This document shows positions 8,629 to 35,689 of a stretch of 64,000 nt of DNA, piece by piece. The notes beneath the pieces are model-generated. The model was not told where the DNA came from and did no database searches. It worked only from the letters and a program-made list of their open reading frames with translations. The stretch's first letter is position 1. Every line of letters starts with the position of its first letter. Source of the DNA: Candidatus Marinacidobacterales bacterium (GTDB taxonomy: Bacteria; Acidobacteriota; Vicinamibacteria; Marinacidobacterales; DATDRI01); contig CBDCNP010000002.1 of the NCBI GenBank assembly GCA_965219415.1, forward strand, positions 4,416,001 through 4,480,000, in the 5' to 3' direction. The translations under genes and the position numbers were made by a program.

Positions 8629-8874
8629 GGTGCTTCCGCCATCAAGTGTTGCTACGCCGTGTTTGAATGCTAGTGTCAGCTGGCCTGCCTGTGTCGGCGA
8701 ACGCCACTAATTAAGGATGTCGGCGTGCACACGAAGGTGTCTCTGAACGTCAGGCACCGTGTGGTCAGCCCAGCCCGCATCGCCGAAAGAACTGCGTCTC
8801 TCGAAATCGGGCCCCAAACTCTAGCACACGAGCGGGTTACGCGGCAGCCACCAACACTTGATTGCGGAAGCACC
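8629..8874. mobile_element. MITE D1 (246 bp) with 22-bp TIR GGTGCTTCCGC(C/A)ATCAAGTGTT
   Basis: TIRs with one mismatch; second copy at 33517-35205 is interrupted by IS110; no target-site duplication seen. Confidence 0.9.
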
Positions 8875-31126: not shown

Positions 31127-31894
31127 CTAGAATCTGAACCTGATGCCGCCTCCTGCCCGTAAACCGCCAGCAGTGAACGACACGGCTTCGCTTCCATCTG
31201 GCATCACCTCGATGGCCGCTTGGCTGAAGCGGGCCATGAATGAAACCCCGATCGATTCAGTCACGTAGTACGCGATACCAGCGCCCGTGTTGAACCCTAT
31301 CGCGATATCCTTCATGGTCACCCGGCTTGCTCCCGTCAGCGACAGGTCGTCAAACGGATATTCGGAAGCGCTGATGGCTTCTTCGATGACCTCCGTCTCC
31401 GTGGAGAAAATGCTCGGCCCAACGAATAGATCGATCTCGACCCGGGCCACGGCAATCCGGTACGCGAAGCCAAGGTGGACGGCGAGCTCAGAGTGCTCGA
31501 GCCCATCAACCGCCATGCTCGCGGTGCGTGGTCTGTCGAAAAACAAGGGATGCGGTACGGACACGTCCAGGTTTGCGTCGTGACCAACCTTGACGGCTTC
31601 TAAGCTTCCGAGTAGCGCAAACTTCGTGGTCAGCGCGAACGCCCCTCCGAACTCGAATGCCGTTCCGGTACCGCCTGAGTATGTCCCTCTGGTGGAGCCT
31701 AACTCCAGGAACTGAGTGGAGCTGGATCCGACCTCGAAAGTCCTGGCCGTGGGCTGGTAGCTCCCGTGGACAAAGATCTGGATCTTCCTCTTGGCTTGGC
31801 TGGAATCCGGCTCGTCCTGACCTCGGACGATGGATGGGGCCAGTACGAGCAGGATGACGGCCACCGCCCTCACTGCACACCTACCGCGTTCCAC
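31127..31894 (-). CDS. Outer-membrane beta-barrel protein
   Basis: Signal peptide, amphipathic strands, terminal GGGIRFRF. Confidence 0.8.
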   Translation of the reverse strand: MERGRCAVRAVAVILLVLAPSIVRGQDEPDSSQAKRKIQIFVHGSYQPTARTFEVGSSSTQFLELGSTRGTYSGGTGTAFEFGGAFALTTKFALLGSLEAVKVGHDANLDVSVPHPLFFDRPRTASMAVDGLEHSELAVHLGFAYRIAVARVEIDLFVGPSIFSTETEVIEEAISASEYPFDDLSLTGASRVTMKDIAIGFNTGAGIAYYVTESIGVSFMARFSQAAIEVMPDGSEAVSFTAGGLRAGGGIRFRF

Positions 31895-33477
31895 CCGGCG
31901 ATGATGTTCCGCTCTTCAGCGCTGCCCGCGCCGTATAGCTCACGGGCGGCCCGGATAGTAGCTTCCCGCGCATCGGAGAAGTTCGAGCTCGGCACCAGAT
32001 AGAACATGAAGGCCCGGTAGAAGATCGACTCGATGCGGTTCATCTGGTCGAAACCGACGCCTTTTACCCGGAGGCCGGAGACCCGGTTGGTGCCGCCCAT
32101 GACCATCAGGTAGAAGGCGTGGTTTATGATGCTCGAGTTGATGTGCACGCCCCGAGCATCGAATTCTCCGAGATAACGGACGCTATAGTGGTCCGGGTAT
32201 ATGGAGTCGGCGCTTCTGGGATTGGGGAATGAACGTCCAAACTTTCCAAGTTTGACGTAGGCGTCTTCGAACAATACCCAGTCGGCCTTCTGGCGTCCCT
32301 TCCCGACCGGCTCGAAGAAGAACTCGACGGCCACCGCCATGATGTCCGAGATCGCCTCGTTAAGTGCCCCGGGCTCGCTGTAGTAGATCAGATCCGACGA
32401 GAAGAACGTGACTGCATGAGTAACCTCGTGCGCCACGATGTCGAGGGCGGCGGAGTTGTACGTAGATTCGATACCGTCTCCGTCGCCGTAGTTCACTGAG
32501 TTATCCAGAGTGTCGTAGAAGGCATTGTCGTATCCCTCCCTCTGGTGGAAAAAATGGACGAAGCTGATGATGCCCCTCCCGCGGTCGTTGACACCTCTCC
32601 TCTTGTGGCGCCTGAAGTAGTAGTCGAGGGTATATCCGGTGTACACGTGGGCATCCACGACGGCGCCGTCGTGCCACTCGTTGTCGAGGTCCGTGGCCAG
32701 GAACGAGTCTGTCTCAGCCCGGTAGTCTTCCCAGGTGGCGGTGTCGAAATTGATGTCGTAGGTCCTGATATCGAAGGGCCGGAGTGTGTCGACGGCCCGG
32801 TAAGTGCCGGCAGCCTGCTCTGAGGTCATCTTCTTCTCATCACCCCAGGTGCCGACTCCCAGGCCCACGCCGTCGTGCTGGCTCGAGCGAAGAGCGTTCC
32901 ACGTTAGGAGGATCTCTCCGGAGTGCGCGTCGATGAACACCGCCTCCAGCGTCTTAGCCCCTCGTACCCTGAGGTGGTACGCGAGCACGTAACGGTCATC
33001 GAGCGGCAGGACCACGAGCTCGACGTCACCGCTGACGCGGGCTCCCGCGGCTCTCCCTGCCAGCGCACGATCAGAGGCTTCGCTCTCGGTCAAGGTCGGG
33101 GTGACGTTGACGTCGATCTTGTCGTAAATGTTGCCGGTAACTGAGAGCACCAGCCCGGCCTGTTTTTGCCAGACCACCTGGCCTCCGAAAACTCGAACCC
33201 CTTGGTGGTACTGATTCATCCTCTCGTGGTAGCGGCCCGGGAAGGTGCCATCGGCCTGGACGCGCTCAAGCTGGAGCCGACCAGAAGCCAACATGAGATC
33301 GACCTCGCTTGCGATAGCCGGGACCTCAGCCGAGTCGCTTGCCCACATGGTCCTGGCTGAGCGGATAGATTGTGCACTCAGTGGGCTAACGATGAGGATG
33401 GCAGTAATCGAAATCAGCAGTCTCATCTTCGCTTCCTCCCTAAAAGCGTGGACGGTGGTTGCCGGTGTCAATTTCAC
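31870..33477 (-). CDS. Thermolysin-like M4 metallopeptidase with propeptide
   Basis: NAFY, DIVAHEVTH, GALNEAISD, GVHINSSIINHAFY. Confidence 0.94.
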   Translation of the reverse strand: MKLTPATTVHAFREEAKMRLLISITAILIVSPLSAQSIRSARTMWASDSAEVPAIASEVDLMLASGRLQLERVQADGTFPGRYHERMNQYHQGVRVFGGQVVWQKQAGLVLSVTGNIYDKIDVNVTPTLTESEASDRALAGRAAGARVSGDVELVVLPLDDRYVLAYHLRVRGAKTLEAVFIDAHSGEILLTWNALRSSQHDGVGLGVGTWGDEKKMTSEQAAGTYRAVDTLRPFDIRTYDINFDTATWEDYRAETDSFLATDLDNEWHDGAVVDAHVYTGYTLDYYFRRHKRRGVNDRGRGIISFVHFFHQREGYDNAFYDTLDNSVNYGDGDGIESTYNSAALDIVAHEVTHAVTFFSSDLIYYSEPGALNEAISDIMAVAVEFFFEPVGKGRQKADWVLFEDAYVKLGKFGRSFPNPRSADSIYPDHYSVRYLGEFDARGVHINSSIINHAFYLMVMGGTNRVSGLRVKGVGFDQMNRIESIFYRAFMFYLVPSSNFSDAREATIRAARELYGAGSAEERNIIAGWNAVGVQ

Positions 33478-33617
33478 GGCGGCTCGGGCTCAATAGTTGC
33501 CCTCCGCTACCTCTTGGGTGCTTCCGCCATCAAGTGATGGAATGGACTCCTCCACTGACATAGACGGCATCGATGTGCCAAAGTCAGTCGAATACGCATC
33601 GAAAAGGAGGAGTCCGA

Positions 33618-34649
33618 ATGAAAGATACGACAATCGCTGTGGATCTTGCAAAGAACGTCTTCGAGATTGCCATCTCGGGAGAAGCGGGGAAGGTGTCCAA
33701 GCAACTCCGTGTGAGTCGACCCAAATTGGTGTCGTTCTTTGCCAAACAGAGCGCTGCCACCGTGCTTCTCGAAGCCTGCGGCTCGGCTCACTTCTGGGCA
33801 AGGACGTTCCGAAGGTTGGGACACGACGTCGTCCTGCTCCCACCTCACCTCGTGAGGCCGTATCGACGCGGGAGCAAGAACGACCGCGCCGACACGAAGG
33901 CGTTGCTCGAGGCCTACAGGAACGAGGAGCTTCTTCCCGTACCCATCAAGTCCGTGCACCAGCACACCCTCGCTGCGCTCCATCGCCTGCGCTCAGGATG
34001 GCTCTCCACACGGACCGCACGCATCAATGCCGTACGCGGGCTCCTGCGCGAACTCGGATTCATCATCCCAAAGGGCGCTCACTTCGTCGTGCCCGCCCTC
34101 TTCGAACTCGTCGAAGACGCTGATTCTGATTTGCCCGACGTGCTCCGTTCGCATCTCCGTGATGCCTGCTCCGAGATTCGAGAACTCAAGGACAAGTGCG
34201 CTAGCATCGAGCACGAGCTCAAGGCGCTCACCAAGCAGCTTCCTGAAGTCCAACGACTTCTCGCCATTCCCGGCATCGGACTTCTGGCCGCGACCGCCAT
34301 CGTGGGCTTCGTCGGCGATCTTCGCCGCTTCCCATCGGGGCGCCGCTTCTCGAGCTACCTCGGCCTAGTTCCCAAGGAAAACTCCAGTGGCGACATTCGC
34401 CGCCTCGGACGCATCACCAAGCGTGGCGACTCCTACCTCCGTATGCTCCTCACCCAGGGCGGGCGCGCCGTGCTCCGCGCGGCGAACGTCAGCAAGAGCC
34501 CGCCCGACAAGCTCCGCGCCTGGGCTCGGAAGGTCCACCGCTCGCGGGGACACAACAAGGCCGTGATTGCTGTCGCCAACAAACTCGCCCGGATCGTCTG
34601 GGCCGTCTCCACCCGCGAGAGTGAATTCCAGTCGCCGGTGGCCGCTTAG
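33618..34649 (+). CDS. IS110 DEDD recombinase/transposase
   Basis: AVDLAK, LEAC, KNDRAD, LGLVPKENSSG, AVANKLARI; AGGAGG RBS before ATG 33618. Confidence 0.95.
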   Translation: MKDTTIAVDLAKNVFEIAISGEAGKVSKQLRVSRPKLVSFFAKQSAATVLLEACGSAHFWARTFRRLGHDVVLLPPHLVRPYRRGSKNDRADTKALLEAYRNEELLPVPIKSVHQHTLAALHRLRSGWLSTRTARINAVRGLLRELGFIIPKGAHFVVPALFELVEDADSDLPDVLRSHLRDACSEIRELKDKCASIEHELKALTKQLPEVQRLLAIPGIGLLAATAIVGFVGDLRRFPSGRRFSSYLGLVPKENSSGDIRRLGRITKRGDSYLRMLLTQGGRAVLRAANVSKSPPDKLRAWARKVHRSRGHNKAVIAVANKLARIVWAVSTRESEFQSPVAA

Positions 34650-34714
34650 ATTTAGAGGCTCCACTTTCGTGTTTTCCTTTTTCCCTTCCAAAAGAGGCTG
34701 CGACGATACCCATC

Positions 34715-34880
34715 CAACTGATGGCGTACCGGTCGGACCGGCGCGGGGTCAAGCCAATAGCAACACTGGCCCTAAGAGGTCGTTCAAAGTGATTGGCTCC
34801 TCGCGCGCGGATTTTCCATCATGGCCCGGAGCACCCAAGACGCTCCTCACTGAGGCCGAAGATACGTTTGCAGTCTGACC
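34715..34880 (+). ncRNA. Predicted bridge/seek RNA with target- and donor-binding loops
   Basis: Stem AGCCAAT/ATTGGCT encloses TAGCAACACT (34758-67), a hairpin and AAGTG (34787-91), matching the two target strands; TTCCATCA (34814-21) and AGATACG (34860-66) match the donor circle junction. RNA boundaries approximate. Confidence 0.8.
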
Positions 34881-35205
34881 CACTCGTCACGACGCGATGG
34901 ATGCGCAGCTTCGATGGAAGATTTATTAAGAAAGGGGCGTGACTAGAAAGAAAGGGGCTTGACTAGAGGAGTCCAGATATGTTGCTACGCCGTGTTTGAA
35001 TGCTAGTGTCAGCTGGCCTGCCTGTATCGGCGAACGCCATCAATAAGGATGTCGGCGTGCACACGAAGGTGTCTCTGAACGTCAGGCACCGTGTGGTCAG
35101 CCCAGCCCGCATCGCCGAAAGAACTGCGTCTCTCGAAATCAGGCTCAAACTCTAGCACACGAGCGGGTTACGCGGCAGCTACCAACACTTGATGGCGGAA
35201 GCACC

Positions 35206-35351
35206 TCTACCTCGAGCTCCCCGTATCCCTCTTGCTCCATGACTTCTACTTCACCTAGACGACGCGTCTTCTTGCGTTCCTTGACCCTTCGTAGCAGACT
35301 TCCCATATCGGCTCCTTTCTTGAGCGGCTTGATTTAGCTTTTGACAACGTC
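35206..35351 (-). mobile_element. Probable IS256-family left-end stub
   Basis: End GACGTTGTCAAAAGC, GAAAGGAG RBS, MGSLLRRVKERKKTRRLGEVEV cut by the D end. Confidence 0.5.
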
Positions 35352-35399
35352 ATCAAACCACCCGAGAGGGAGCCGTTTCAAATTTCAACTAAGAGTGGC

Positions 35400-35689
35400 A
35401 CACATTCCTTGCGGAGGCCACGCAGTTCTTCGAGTTCCTCGCTCGTCAGGGTTCCGGGACCGCCTTCACCACGGTCGATCCTGTCCTGCCTCACCCAGGC
35501 ATAAAGCGACGTCTCCGTCACATCGATATCCCGGGCTACCACGCTCACTGCCTTGCCGCTCTCCCGAACCAGCTGCACTGCCTCTGCTCGAAATTCCTTC
35601 GTGAACTGCCGACGTTTCTTTTTCTCTGCCATCTGAACACCCATATACCTCTCCGTTCGTTAGGTGTCCACTGAAACGAAGCAGGCCCA
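35400..35689 (-). mobile_element. IS3-family left end plus truncated orfA
   Basis: RRQFTKEFRAEAVQLV...VARD...LYAWV; end TGGGCCTGCTTCGTTTCAGTGGACACC. Confidence 0.85.

What the first reader, a model, noticed from the sequence alone, without database searches (positions are those of the whole stretch)
33517..34981. IS1111-type element whose bridge RNA is programmed against the MITE D1 terminal repeat
Seen: insertion at AAG[TG]TTGCTA inside the D1 left TIR, with the empty site at 8644-8654. In the 3' non-coding region, a stem-closed internal loop carries TAGCAACACT (34758-67), the exact reverse complement of target AGTGTTGCTA, and AAGTG (34787-91), the other strand up to the core. A second loop carries TTCCATCA (34814-21) and AGATACG (34860-66), matching the two strands of the circle junction AGATA[TG]ATGGAA with one mismatch. 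Known: IS110/IS1111 bridge (seek) RNAs use this four-guide layout, and IS4321/IS5075 target Tn21 TIRs. Inference: a complete natural recombinase, guide, donor and target set in one window, with a MITE end as target. The guide fits only the D1 left end, not the TGTTGG ends of D2 and H.
Basis: partly seen in the sequence, partly recalled or inferred. Interest (0 to 1): 0.85.

Follow-up and report, generated by a model that had tools for sequence, protein, structure and literature searches.

The report
RNA-guided IS that targets transposon ends
This is an ordinary though unusually well documented member of the IS1111/IS110 family of RNA-guided jumping genes: its own small guide RNA matches an 11-base site in the terminal repeat of another transposon family, and it sits there about 30 times in this genome.

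Summary
Window 33537-34981 is a 1445-bp IS110-family element of the IS1111 type. It has a 343-aa DEDD transposase, subterminal inverted repeats and a 332-nt 3' non-coding region. That region folds into a closing stem with two stem-closed internal loops. One loop carries sequences matching both strands of the target AAG-TG-TTGCTA. The other matches the abutted element ends, with one C-for-T difference.

- **Site specificity:** all 31 right junctions in the genome follow the same 20 bp of a terminal repeat. Thirty lie at TTGCT ends and one at a TTGG end, against 87 empty TTGCTA ends and 334 empty TTGG ends.
- **Conserved RNA:** a covariance model built from this RNA finds a homologue 3' of the transposase in 18 relatives and in ISPa25. 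Stems covary and the target loop is hypervariable.
- **Guides track flanks:** each relative's guides match its own flanks (0 of 100,000 permutations reach the cognate score). One close variant carries changed guides and sits at a correspondingly different site.

It is one end of a 1.2-kb IS1-like element and of several derived MITEs.

RNA expression and guidance were not shown directly. Verdict: new member of a known kind, of modest interest.

The parts
33517..33536 (+). Outer 20 bp of the host terminal inverted repeat (GGTGCTTCCGCCATCAAGTG). The left target half AAG is at 33532-34 and the core TG at 33535-36.
   Evidence: the same 20 bp precede all full copies
33537..34981 (+). IS1111-type IS110-family insertion sequence, 1445 bp counted with the 3' TG
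   Evidence: about 30 full copies at 99.4-100% identity
33543..33552 (+). Left subterminal inverted repeat TGGACTCCTC, preceded by the 6-nt terminal extension ATGGAA (33537-42)
   Evidence: 10 bp perfect, 12 of 14 when extended. Same geometry in ISPa25.
33618..34649 (+). Transposase/recombinase, 343 aa. It has DEDD-type motif positions D9, E52, D89, D92 and GLVPKENSSG at 249-258. A GGAGG ribosome-binding site lies upstream.
   Evidence: PF01548 E 6.9e-12, PF02371 E 3.2e-24; NF033542 'IS110 family RNA-guided transposase', 302.9 bits, cut-off 140
34723..34885 (+). Predicted bridge/seek RNA scaffold. A closing helix (34731-38 with 34873-80) encloses the target-binding and donor-binding stem-loops.
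34758..34767 (+). Target guide 1 (5' strand of the target loop): UAGCAACACU, complementary to the top strand AG-TG-TTGCTA
   Evidence: The same loop position matches the right flank in relatives.
34787..34791 (+). Target guide 2 (3' strand of the target loop): AAGUG, identical to the top strand AAG-TG, so it pairs with the bottom strand
   Evidence: The same position matches the left flank in relatives (up to 8 nt in L136 and L141).
34814..34821 (+). Donor guide 1: UUCCAUCA, complementary to TG-ATGGAA (core plus left end)
   Evidence: In the 93% variant the guide is UUCCGUCA and the left end ATGGGA, which can still pair through two wobble pairs.
34860..34866 (+). Donor guide 2: AGAUACG, against the right end plus core AGATA-TG. 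There is one C-for-T difference at the first core position.
   Evidence: Relatives mostly have AGATACG at the right junction. The 93% variant has the guide AGAUAUG.
34929..34968 (+). Two tandem 20-nt units (AAGAAAGGGGCKTGACTAG + A). The proximal unit holds a -35-like TTGACT at 34959-64, which would lie 18 nt from TGGAAT of the left end in a circle junction.
   Evidence: by eye. The unit number differs among copies. The promoter role is inferred.
34966..34975 (+). Right subterminal inverted repeat GAGGAGTCCA, followed by GATA (34976-79) and the core TG (34980-81)
34982..35205 (+). Remainder of the interrupted D1-type MITE. The right target half TTGCTA is at 34982-87 and the MITE's other (TTGGTA-type) end at 35183-35205.
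8629..8874 (+). Uninterrupted D1-type MITE with the empty target AAGTGTTGCTA at 8644-8654

Best explanation
The element is an active or recently active IS1111-type member of the IS110 family.

Shown from sequence: its 3' non-coding region has the form of a bridge (seek) RNA with two internal loops.
- In the target loop, UAGCAACACU can pair with the top strand of AG-TG-TTGCTA, and AAGUG with the bottom strand of AAG-TG.
- In the donor loop, UUCCAUCA and AGAUACG can pair with the two strands of the abutted ends AGATA-TG-ATGGAA.

Inferred from the family: the DEDD/serine recombinase, held by this RNA, recombines a circular copy of the element into the 11-bp site at the TG core, in one orientation.

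That site lies 20 bp inside one terminal inverted repeat of a 1.2-kb IS1-like element and of the MITEs derived from it. The element therefore accumulates inside another transposon family and splits its end. The other end of these hosts reads TTGG instead of TTGC and is spared.

Shown: site specificity, loop-target and loop-donor complementarity, conservation and covariation of the RNA scaffold, and guide-flank covariation in relatives.
Inferred: transcription and processing of the RNA, the circular intermediate and its junction promoter, and the chemistry.
For: **Family features**
- Pfam PF01548 and PF02371 both match. NCBIfam NF033542, 'IS110 family RNA-guided transposase', scores 302.9 bits against a cut-off of 140.
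- The GL-P----SG motif, the 10-bp subterminal inverted repeats and the 343-aa length are present. The non-coding stretch is 332 nt at the 3' side against 81 nt at the 5' side. The defining features are taken from Siddiquee et al., PMC11187229, sections read.
- The best named relative is ISPa25, at 45.9% identity over 99% of the protein.

**Site specificity in the own genome**
- In all 36 BLAST pieces, the left end always follows GGTGCTTC(C/T)GC(C/T)ATCAAGTG. The right end is followed by TTGCT in 30 of 31 right junctions and by TTGGCG in 1.
- The genome holds 511 repeat-end-like sites. TTGCTA ends: 87 empty, about 30 occupied. TTGG ends: 334 empty, 1 occupied. Fisher p = 3e-18.
- The one-mismatch TTGGTA ends are 33 empty and 0 occupied.

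**Independent insertions**
- IS copies are 99.4-100% identical. Their hosts are 84-98% identical to the reference hosts and belong to several families.

**Relatives in related MAGs**
- The 93% variant, which has the same target guides, also sits at non-repeat sites that share only (T)CAAGTG|TTGCT (L049, L050).
- The single copy of the 90.6% variant (L047) has guides AUAACAAUCG and CAGCG. It sits at ..CCAGTG|IS|ATTGTTAT.
- The 93% variant has AGAUAUG in place of AGAUACG.

**RNA scaffold**
- Model R1 hits 3' of the transposase gene in 18 loci at E below 1e-9 and in ISPa25 at E = 1.8e-13.
- On 19 sequences, 90.4% of cells are paired, against 35-42% when partners are slid. Twenty of 40 pairs show a change on both sides, and 0 of 500 shuffles reach this.
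- The 2-pair 'helix' inside the target loop is only 51% paired, as expected for guides.

**Guide against flank across 11 distinct elements**
- Mean cognate score for guide 1 is 7.4, against 4.0 for non-cognate pairs. For guide 2 it is 4.5 against 3.1. Zero of 100,000 permutations reach the cognate total.

**Guide order**
- The top-strand complement lies 5' of the bottom-strand match, the order reported for IS1111-type seekRNAs.
Against: - No direct evidence that the RNA is made or where it starts and ends. No sigma-70-like promoter was found in the integrated copy. Rfam 15 gave no match above chance.
- Target guide 2 is only 5 nt long, and donor guide 2 carries a mismatch. Neither is significant alone.
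- The register of guide 1 relative to the core is not constant among relatives. It covers core plus 6 nt here, core plus 7 in L140, and 8 nt after the core without the core in L136. The pairing rules of this subfamily are therefore not fully worked out.
- Some relatives (L142, L147, L149) match their flanks poorly.
- The alignment used for pair counts was fitted to the model, which favours the structure.
- The reprogrammed variant L047 is a single copy with no empty site found.
Confidence: 0.9

Rival explanations
1. The copies were spread by the host elements, not by RNA-guided insertion. One ancient insertion into a repeat end was then multiplied when the IS1-like transposase moved the composite (repeat plus IS).
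For: The outer 20 bp of the host repeat are retained at every left junction, so a composite could in principle still be recognised. Three left flanks are identical (gaaatagacc), which points to some duplication of whole regions.
Against: - The hosts are of different kinds: 11 D1 MITEs, 17 IS1-like elements or remnants, 2 others and 1 opposite end. They are 84-98% identical to the references, while the IS copies are 99.4-100% identical.
- Relatives also sit at non-repeat sites that share only about 11 nt.
Confidence: 0.04
2. The transposase protein itself recognises the site, and the complementarity in the non-coding region is a by-product, for example a captured scrap of target.
For: No experiment here separates protein recognition from RNA recognition. 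Guide 2 is short.
Against: - The complementary stretches lie in the hypervariable loops of a scaffold that is conserved and covaries.
- The stretches change together with the flanks across 11 elements.
- A 90.6%-identical variant has both different guides and a different site.
- For IS1111-type elements, the RNA requirement and reprogramming were shown experimentally (PMC11187229, abstract and sections read).
Confidence: 0.04
3. The element is a dead relic. The RNA-like region is conserved only by recent common descent of the copies.
For: Several copies are truncated or interrupted by other elements. Expression was not shown.
Against: - Sixteen copies are 100% identical over 1445 bp, and all 5 transposase matches scored in the own genome have open frames without stops.
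- The RNA scaffold is conserved down to 46% protein identity, with compensatory changes.
Confidence: 0.02

Closest known systems
ISPa25 / ISKpn4 / ISPst6 (IS1111-family elements that target attC sites of integron cassettes; seekRNA shown for ISKpn4 and ISPst6, predicted for ISPa25, in PMC11187229)
   Same: - The transposase is 45.9% identical to ISPa25 over 99% of its length.
- The terminal geometry is the same: TG-ATGGAAT-GGACTCCTCC ... GGAGGAGTCC-ATATA-CG.
- A homologous 3' RNA is hit by my model at E = 1.8e-13.
- The guide order is the same, and the bottom-strand guide has the same C-for-T at the first core position.
   Different: - The target is a transposon terminal repeat, not attC.
- The core is TG at both junctions.
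- The host is an uncultured marine Acidobacteriota lineage (record titles).
[quoted passage not shown]
   Same: The lifestyle is the same: site- and orientation-specific insertion inside the terminal inverted repeat of another transposon, splitting that end.
   Different: - The host repeat here belongs to an IS1-like insertion sequence and its MITEs, not to a Tn3/Tn21-family transposon.
- I did not fetch or compare IS4321 or IS5075 sequences. The comparison rests on the title of Partridge and Hall 2003, seen in the reference list, and on the mention of the IS4321 target.
IS621 bridge RNA (IS110 group; Durrant et al. PMC11208160, Hiraizumi et al. PMC11208158)
   Same: - Two internal loops, each with two guides covering the two strands around a 2-nt core.
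- The second core base is nearly invariant and the first is tolerant (passage read). Here G is constant and the first base is T or C.
- Low mismatch tolerance in the target loop (passage read). Here the one-mismatch TTGGTA ends are 0 occupied of 33.
   Different: - The RNA lies 3' of the gene, not 5'.
- The guide order in the loop is reversed.
- The subterminal repeats are long.
- The core is TG, not CT.
ISPpu9 with its Ssr9 module (PMC12288879, abstract read)
   Same: Extra copies of the 3' RNA-plus-right-end module occur apart from the transposase gene. Here they form tandem partial copies after full elements.
   Different: Here the modules are tandem, are joined right-end-to-internal-site at NG dinucleotides, and carry the guide RNA itself. 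Independent mobility was not shown.

Membership tests
IS1111 group of the IS110 family | N-terminal DEDD (RuvC-like) transposase domain | tested here: met
   PF01548 E 6.9e-12 over residues 7-146. D9, E52, D89 and D92 lie in the expected motifs by inspection. They were not aligned residue by residue to a solved structure.
IS1111 group of the IS110 family | C-terminal PF02371 domain with the GL-P----S(t)G motif; length 330-350 aa | tested here: met
   PF02371 E 3.2e-24. GLVPKENSSG at 249-258, protein of 343 aa. The motif and length range are as stated in PMC11187229 section 6.
IS1111 group of the IS110 family | Subterminal inverted repeats with short asymmetric terminal extensions | tested here: met
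   TGGACTCCTC/GAGGAGTCCA, 10 bp perfect and 12 of 14 when extended. The extensions are ATGGAA on the left and GATA(+TG) on the right. The usual length is given as 11-13 bp with extensions of 7 and 3, so the extensions here are slightly longer. ISPa25 shows the same geometry.
IS1111 group of the IS110 family | Long non-coding region downstream of the transposase gene | tested here: met
   332 nt at the 3' side (34650-34981) against 81 nt at the 5' side (33537-33617)
IS1111 group of the IS110 family | Site- and orientation-specific insertion without target duplication beyond the shared core | tested here: met
   30 of 31 right junctions lie at AAGTG|TTGCT, all in one orientation. The empty site is in the window.
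IS1111 group of the IS110 family | Transposase related over its full length to recognised IS1111-family members | tested here: met
   ISPa25-family transposase, 45.9% identity over residues 1-339. No tree with IS110-type outgroups was built.
Bridge / seek RNA | Structured RNA from the non-coding region with stem-closed loops, conserved among relatives | tested here: met
   20 of 40 pairs show a change on both sides, and 90.4% of cells are paired.
Bridge / seek RNA | Loop segments complementary to both strands of the target, with the top-strand complement 5' in the IS1111 type, changing together with the target among relatives | tested here: met
   this element; relatives; 0 of 100,000 permutations. 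The guide order is.
Bridge / seek RNA | A second loop complementary to the abutted element ends (donor) | tested here: met
   UUCCAUCA and AGAUACG against AGATA-TG-ATGGAA, with one mismatch. The 9-nt complement was reached in 43 of 3000 shuffles. The loop is nearly constant among relatives, whose ends are also nearly constant, so there is little covariation to test.
Bridge / seek RNA | The RNA is expressed, binds the transposase and is required for transposition | not testable with these tools
   Only fragmentary contigs of metatranscriptome runs were available. They cannot show RNA ends or levels.
IS1111 group of the IS110 family | Circular intermediate with abutted ends that forms a junction promoter | not testable with these tools
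   By eye, TTGACT (34959-64) would lie 18 nt from TG-n-TGGAAT across the junction. Relatives have TTGAC(A/G)/TTGCGG and TGTAAT/TGAGAT at the same places. No circle junction was found in the genome.

The most novel reading that the evidence does not exclude
The family leaves natural footprints of 'half-match' recombination. In this genome and in four of the five related MAGs, full elements are followed by tandem partial copies that each hold the guide RNA and the right end. All 11 distinct joints link the right end AGATA directly to an internal site at an NG dinucleotide, with no other likeness to the target.

This would mean that the recombinase, using only the donor half of its RNA plus a single core G, makes rearrangements in vivo and amplifies RNA-plus-end modules. 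The main activity, meanwhile, acts as a hyperparasite that disables one end of an IS1-like transposon family.
Probability: 0.3. Interest if true: 0.5.

Novelty: new member of a known kind. Interest (0 to 1): 0.35.

Why it matters
The finding does not change what is known. RNA-guided target choice by IS1111/IS110 elements was established in 2024, and insertion into repeats and into other transposons' ends is a known habit of the family.

Its value is as a clean natural data set for the less studied IS1111-type RNA:
- about 30 independent insertions;
- 87 empty cognate sites;
- 334 near-cognate ends that are spared, including 33 that differ by a single base;
- a naturally retargeted sister variant, and a guide change that restores pairing with the core;
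- a covariance model that recovers the RNA down to 46% protein identity in the relatives searched, and in ISPa25.

Together these could help define the pairing register, core rules and mismatch tolerance of IS1111-type guides, which matter for engineering them.

Tried and rejected
- **Rfam 15 scan of 33000-35500**: only chance-level matches to unrelated families. No bridge-RNA family reached any threshold.
- **Promoter and terminator scan of 33450-35050**: no sigma-70-like promoter, and two minus-strand terminator-like sites at chance level. This says little for an Acidobacteriota host.
- **RNA evidence**: the run search listed 10 runs, 3 on record as RNA and a fourth only guessed to be. Laying X1-X4 gave short contigs of related sequences. 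Cover was patchy, no piece spanned the RNA, and no starts or ends could be seen. One contig joint skipping 34748-34852 came from a single contig with a 21-letter side. Nothing can be concluded on expression.
- **More copies of the retargeted variant L047**: it is a single copy in the 5 genomes searched, and no empty site was found. Its target rests on one insertion.
- **L129**: an RNA-like locus with no transposase-sized ORF listed just upstream of the RNA (the 191-aa open-ended ORF at the locus start was not tested). It was used only as a fourth seed sequence. Its ends were not defined.
- **Target-site duplication around the host repeats**: none found, with 0 of 43 small pairs identical at 4-9 nt. 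The way the IS1-like hosts insert is left open.
- **Fixed pairing register for guide 1 across relatives**: rejected as a single rule, because the register differs by up to 2 nt.
- **Not used:** Supplementary files of papers were not requested. The supplementary figures of PMC11187229 (seekRNA folds, including ISPa25) and supplementary table 5 of PMC11208160 (predicted bridge RNAs) could bear on the comparison, and I did not see them. No structure prediction, protein database search or complex prediction was run, because the family assignment did not need them.
Full report
**1. What is there.**
The window holds a 1445-bp element at 33537-34981. Its left junction reads GGTGCTTCCGCCATCAAG-TG|ATGGAATGGACTCC. 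Its right junction reads GGAGTCCAGATA-TG|TTGCTACGCC. An uninterrupted copy of the host repeat at 8629-8874 reads ...CATCAAGTGTTGCTACGCC, with AAGTGTTGCTA at 8644-8654. The insertion is therefore exact, and a TG is shared by both junctions.

**2. The gene and the ends.**
- The ORF at 33618-34649 (343 aa, preceded by GGAGG) matches PF01548 and PF02371.
- It also matches NCBIfam NF033542, 'IS110 family RNA-guided transposase', at 302.9 bits against a cut-off of 140.
- It carries GLVPKENSSG at 249-258, which fits the GL-P----S(t)G motif given for IS1111-type enzymes (motif from PMC11187229 section 6).
- The ends have 10-bp perfect subterminal inverted repeats, TGGACTCCTC/GAGGAGTCCA, with short extensions.
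- The long non-coding region is downstream of the gene: 332 nt against 81 nt upstream.
- The best named relative in the plasmid collection is an ISPa25-family transposase, at 45.9% identity over 99% of the protein. ISPa25 shows the same terminal geometry.

These are the features that PMC11187229 and PMC11208160 (passage) use to set the IS1111 group apart from the IS110 group.

**3. The RNA.**
- The 3' region folds better than all 100 shuffles (z = -2.96).
- A consensus fold was made on four distinct versions: the window, a 93% variant, a 90.6% variant and a more distant locus, L129. It gives a closing helix (34731-38 with 34873-80) around two stem-loops.
- In the first stem-loop, GCCAAU/AUUGGC closes an internal loop. 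Its 5' strand is (U)AGCAACACU and its 3' strand ends in AAGUG, with a small GGCC/GGUC hairpin on top.
- In the second stem-loop, GGCC/GGCC closes a loop with UUCCAUCAU on the 5' side and AGAUACG on the 3' side.
- A covariance model of this alignment (R1) found a full-length match 3' of the transposase gene in 18 loci at E below 1e-9. Seventeen came from a protein search of 401 Acidobacteriota genomes, at 46-62% protein identity. One, L069, came from a Steroidobacteraceae MAG found.
- R1 also matched the ISPa25 non-coding region (E = 1.8e-13) and another plasmid IS110-family element (E = 9.5e-5).
- On 19 sequences, 90.4% of cells are paired, against 35-42% when partners are slid by 1-3 columns. 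Twenty of 40 pairs show changes on both sides, and 0 of 500 shuffles reach this.
- That alignment was fitted to the model, which favours the structure. The slid controls and the number of double changes are still clear.
- The two pairs drawn inside the target loop are only 51% paired. The guide segments therefore behave as loop, not helix.

**4. Does the RNA match what the element does?**

*In this genome*
- BLAST with the element gives 36 pieces.
- Every left end follows the same 20 bp of repeat.
- Of the 31 right junctions, 30 are followed by TTGCT and one by TTGGCG.
- The genome has 511 sites resembling the 20-bp repeat end. TTGCTA follows in 87, TTGG-type sequences in 334, and the element in 32.
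- Occupancy is thus about 30 of 117 for TTGCTA ends and 1 of 335 for TTGG ends (Fisher p = 3e-18).
- TTGGTA ends differ from the target by one base. They are 33 empty and none occupied.
- This fits the low mismatch tolerance reported for IS621 target loops (passage read).

*In related MAGs*
- The 98% variant has the same guides and the same sites.
- The 93% variant has the same target guides. It sits in repeat ends, but also at unrelated sites that share only (T)CAAGTG|TTGCT (L049, L050). So about 11 nt, not the repeat as such, define the target.
- The one copy of a 90.6% variant (L047) has AUAACAAUCG and CAGCG in the target loop and sits at CCAGTG|IS|ATTGTTAT.

*Across relatives*
- In 11 elements with distinct RNAs, the loop strands match their own flanks far better than those of others. 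The mean score for guide 1 is 7.4 against 4.0, and for guide 2 it is 4.5 against 3.1. Zero of 100,000 permutations reach the cognate total.
- Rows dropped before that count: L132 (same guide 1 as L140), L137 and L138 (same RNA as L136), L149 (same as L144), and loci without both ends (L133, L143, L145, L148, L069).
- Poor matches were kept in the count: L142, L147 and L144 fit their flanks weakly. Guide 1 of L147 fits the flank of L139 better than its own.

**5. Details that differ from a simple picture.**
- Donor guide 2 reads AGAUACG where the DNA reads AGATATG. In most relatives the bottom-strand guides of both loops read CG, the right junction reads CG and the left junction reads TG. ISPa25 does the same.
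- So the first core base is loosely specified and G is constant. This is like the CT core of IS621, where the second base is nearly invariant (passage read).
- In this lineage the target guide has become UG. In the 93% variant the donor guide has also become UG. Both changes move towards full pairing with a TG core.
- In the 93% variant the left end is ATGGGA and the donor guide UUCCGUCA. These can still pair through one rU:dG and one rG:dT pair (my reading).
- The register of guide 1 relative to the core differs by up to 2 nt among relatives. I could not reduce it to one rule.

**6. What the target is.**
That is too narrow.
- About 28 pairs of these repeats lie 1198-1202 bp apart.
- One such 1.2-kb unit (L161) encodes a 392-aa protein. 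It matches the NCBIfam IS1-family transposase model at E = 6.6e-24, or 85 bits, which is below the cut-off of 100. It has weak Pfam hits to DDE_Tnp_IS1 and HTH domains. I call it IS1-like.
- Its TTGCTA end lies just beyond the stop codon, so the insertion splits the repeat and not the gene.
- Of the 31 right junctions, 11 continue into D1-type MITEs, 17 into this IS1-like element or truncated forms of it, 2 into other repeats, and 1 into the opposite, TTGG-type end.
- The IS copies are 99.4-100% identical, while the hosts are 84-98% identical to the references. This argues for many separate recent insertions rather than spread of one composite.

**7. How it most likely works.**
By analogy with the experimentally studied family members (abstracts and sections read):
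1. The element excises as a circle with abutted ends AGATA-TG-ATGGAA.
2. The junction would bring a -35-like TTGACT (34959-64) to 18 nt from TG-n-TGGAAT, a possible promoter. This is seen by eye only. Relatives keep similar hexamers at the same places.
3. The 3' RNA binds the recombinase.
4. One loop pairs with the two strands of the junction and the other with the two strands of AAG-TG-TTGCTA.
5. Strand exchange at the core inserts the element in one orientation.

Only the sequence relations are shown here. The RNA, the circle and the chemistry are inferred.

**8. Side observation.**
In this genome (C3:3315125-3316853) and in four of the five related MAGs, full copies are followed by tandem partial copies. 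These start at various internal points and run to the right end, so each holds the RNA.
- All 11 distinct joints link AGATA directly to an internal site.
- The two bases after the joint are those of the internal site and read NG in 11 of 11: TG seven times, CG twice, GG once, AG once.
- The internal sites do not otherwise resemble the target.
- This looks like recombinase-made joints that need only the right end and a core G.
- It recalls two reports: the 'half-match' recombination described for IS621 (bioRxiv 10.64898/2026.08.31.748434, abstract read) and the separate Ssr9 modules of ISPpu9 (PMC12288879, abstract read).

I did not test this further.

**9. Novelty and verdict.**
The thing itself is a new member of a known kind.
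- Bridge/seek RNAs of IS1111-type elements, natural retargeting, and insertion into repeats, attC sites or other transposons' ends are all in print.
- One full-text search for IS110 together with MITE, terminal inverted repeat and insertion site listed no paper on an IS110-family element aimed at an IS1-like or MITE end. That single search does not show that none exists.
- Interest is modest. The case is a tidy natural data set for the rules of IS1111-type guides rather than a surprise.

Noticed in passing
G000:C3:4400829-4402028 (locus L161 101-1300); about 28 similar units genome-wide: A 1.2-kb element is bounded by the same terminal repeats as the MITEs. It encodes a 392-aa IS1-like transposase (NCBIfam IS1 model E 6.6e-24, below cut-off). 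It is the likely parent of the MITE families and hosts more than half of the IS insertions. No target-site duplication was seen around 43 small repeat pairs.
   Followed up: partly
G000:C3:3315125-3316853 (L162); L031, L039, L040, L043-L046, L056: Full IS copies are followed by 1-3 tandem partial copies, each holding the RNA plus the right end. All 11 distinct joints link the right end AGATA to an internal site at an NG dinucleotide (TG 7, CG 2, GG 1, AG 1).
   Followed up: partly
window 34929-34968: A 20-nt unit (AAGAAAGGGGCKTGACTAG + A) just inside the right subterminal repeat is present twice here. Other copies and variants have one or three units. The unit holds the -35-like TTGACT.
   Followed up: no
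G000:C3:2632819, C3:4573069, C3:4908287; L115, L119, L120, L123: Several IS copies are cut by two other mobile-element ends. One begins CGTCCTGTGCCAAAACTCGG and the other TGTCCATCATCATTATTAATCC. This indicates nested insertions by further element families.
   Followed up: no
L129 1524-1700: A more distant RNA of the same scaffold (131.7 bits with R1) has a different target loop. No transposase-sized ORF was listed just upstream. It may be a solo RNA module or a decayed element.
   Followed up: no
window 31870-33477 (-): A 535-aa ORF with an HEVTH zinc-protease motif starts at 33477, 40 bp from the interrupted MITE end at 33517. The repeat and the IS therefore sit in its upstream region.
   Followed up: no
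L164 (NZ_MG874043.1 56417-59830): An IS110-family element on a Salmonella plasmid shows the same layout. Its target-loop strands match its own flanks: CTTTGTT on the left and TGAATAAA on the right. My model hits its RNA only weakly (E 9.5e-5).
   Followed up: partly
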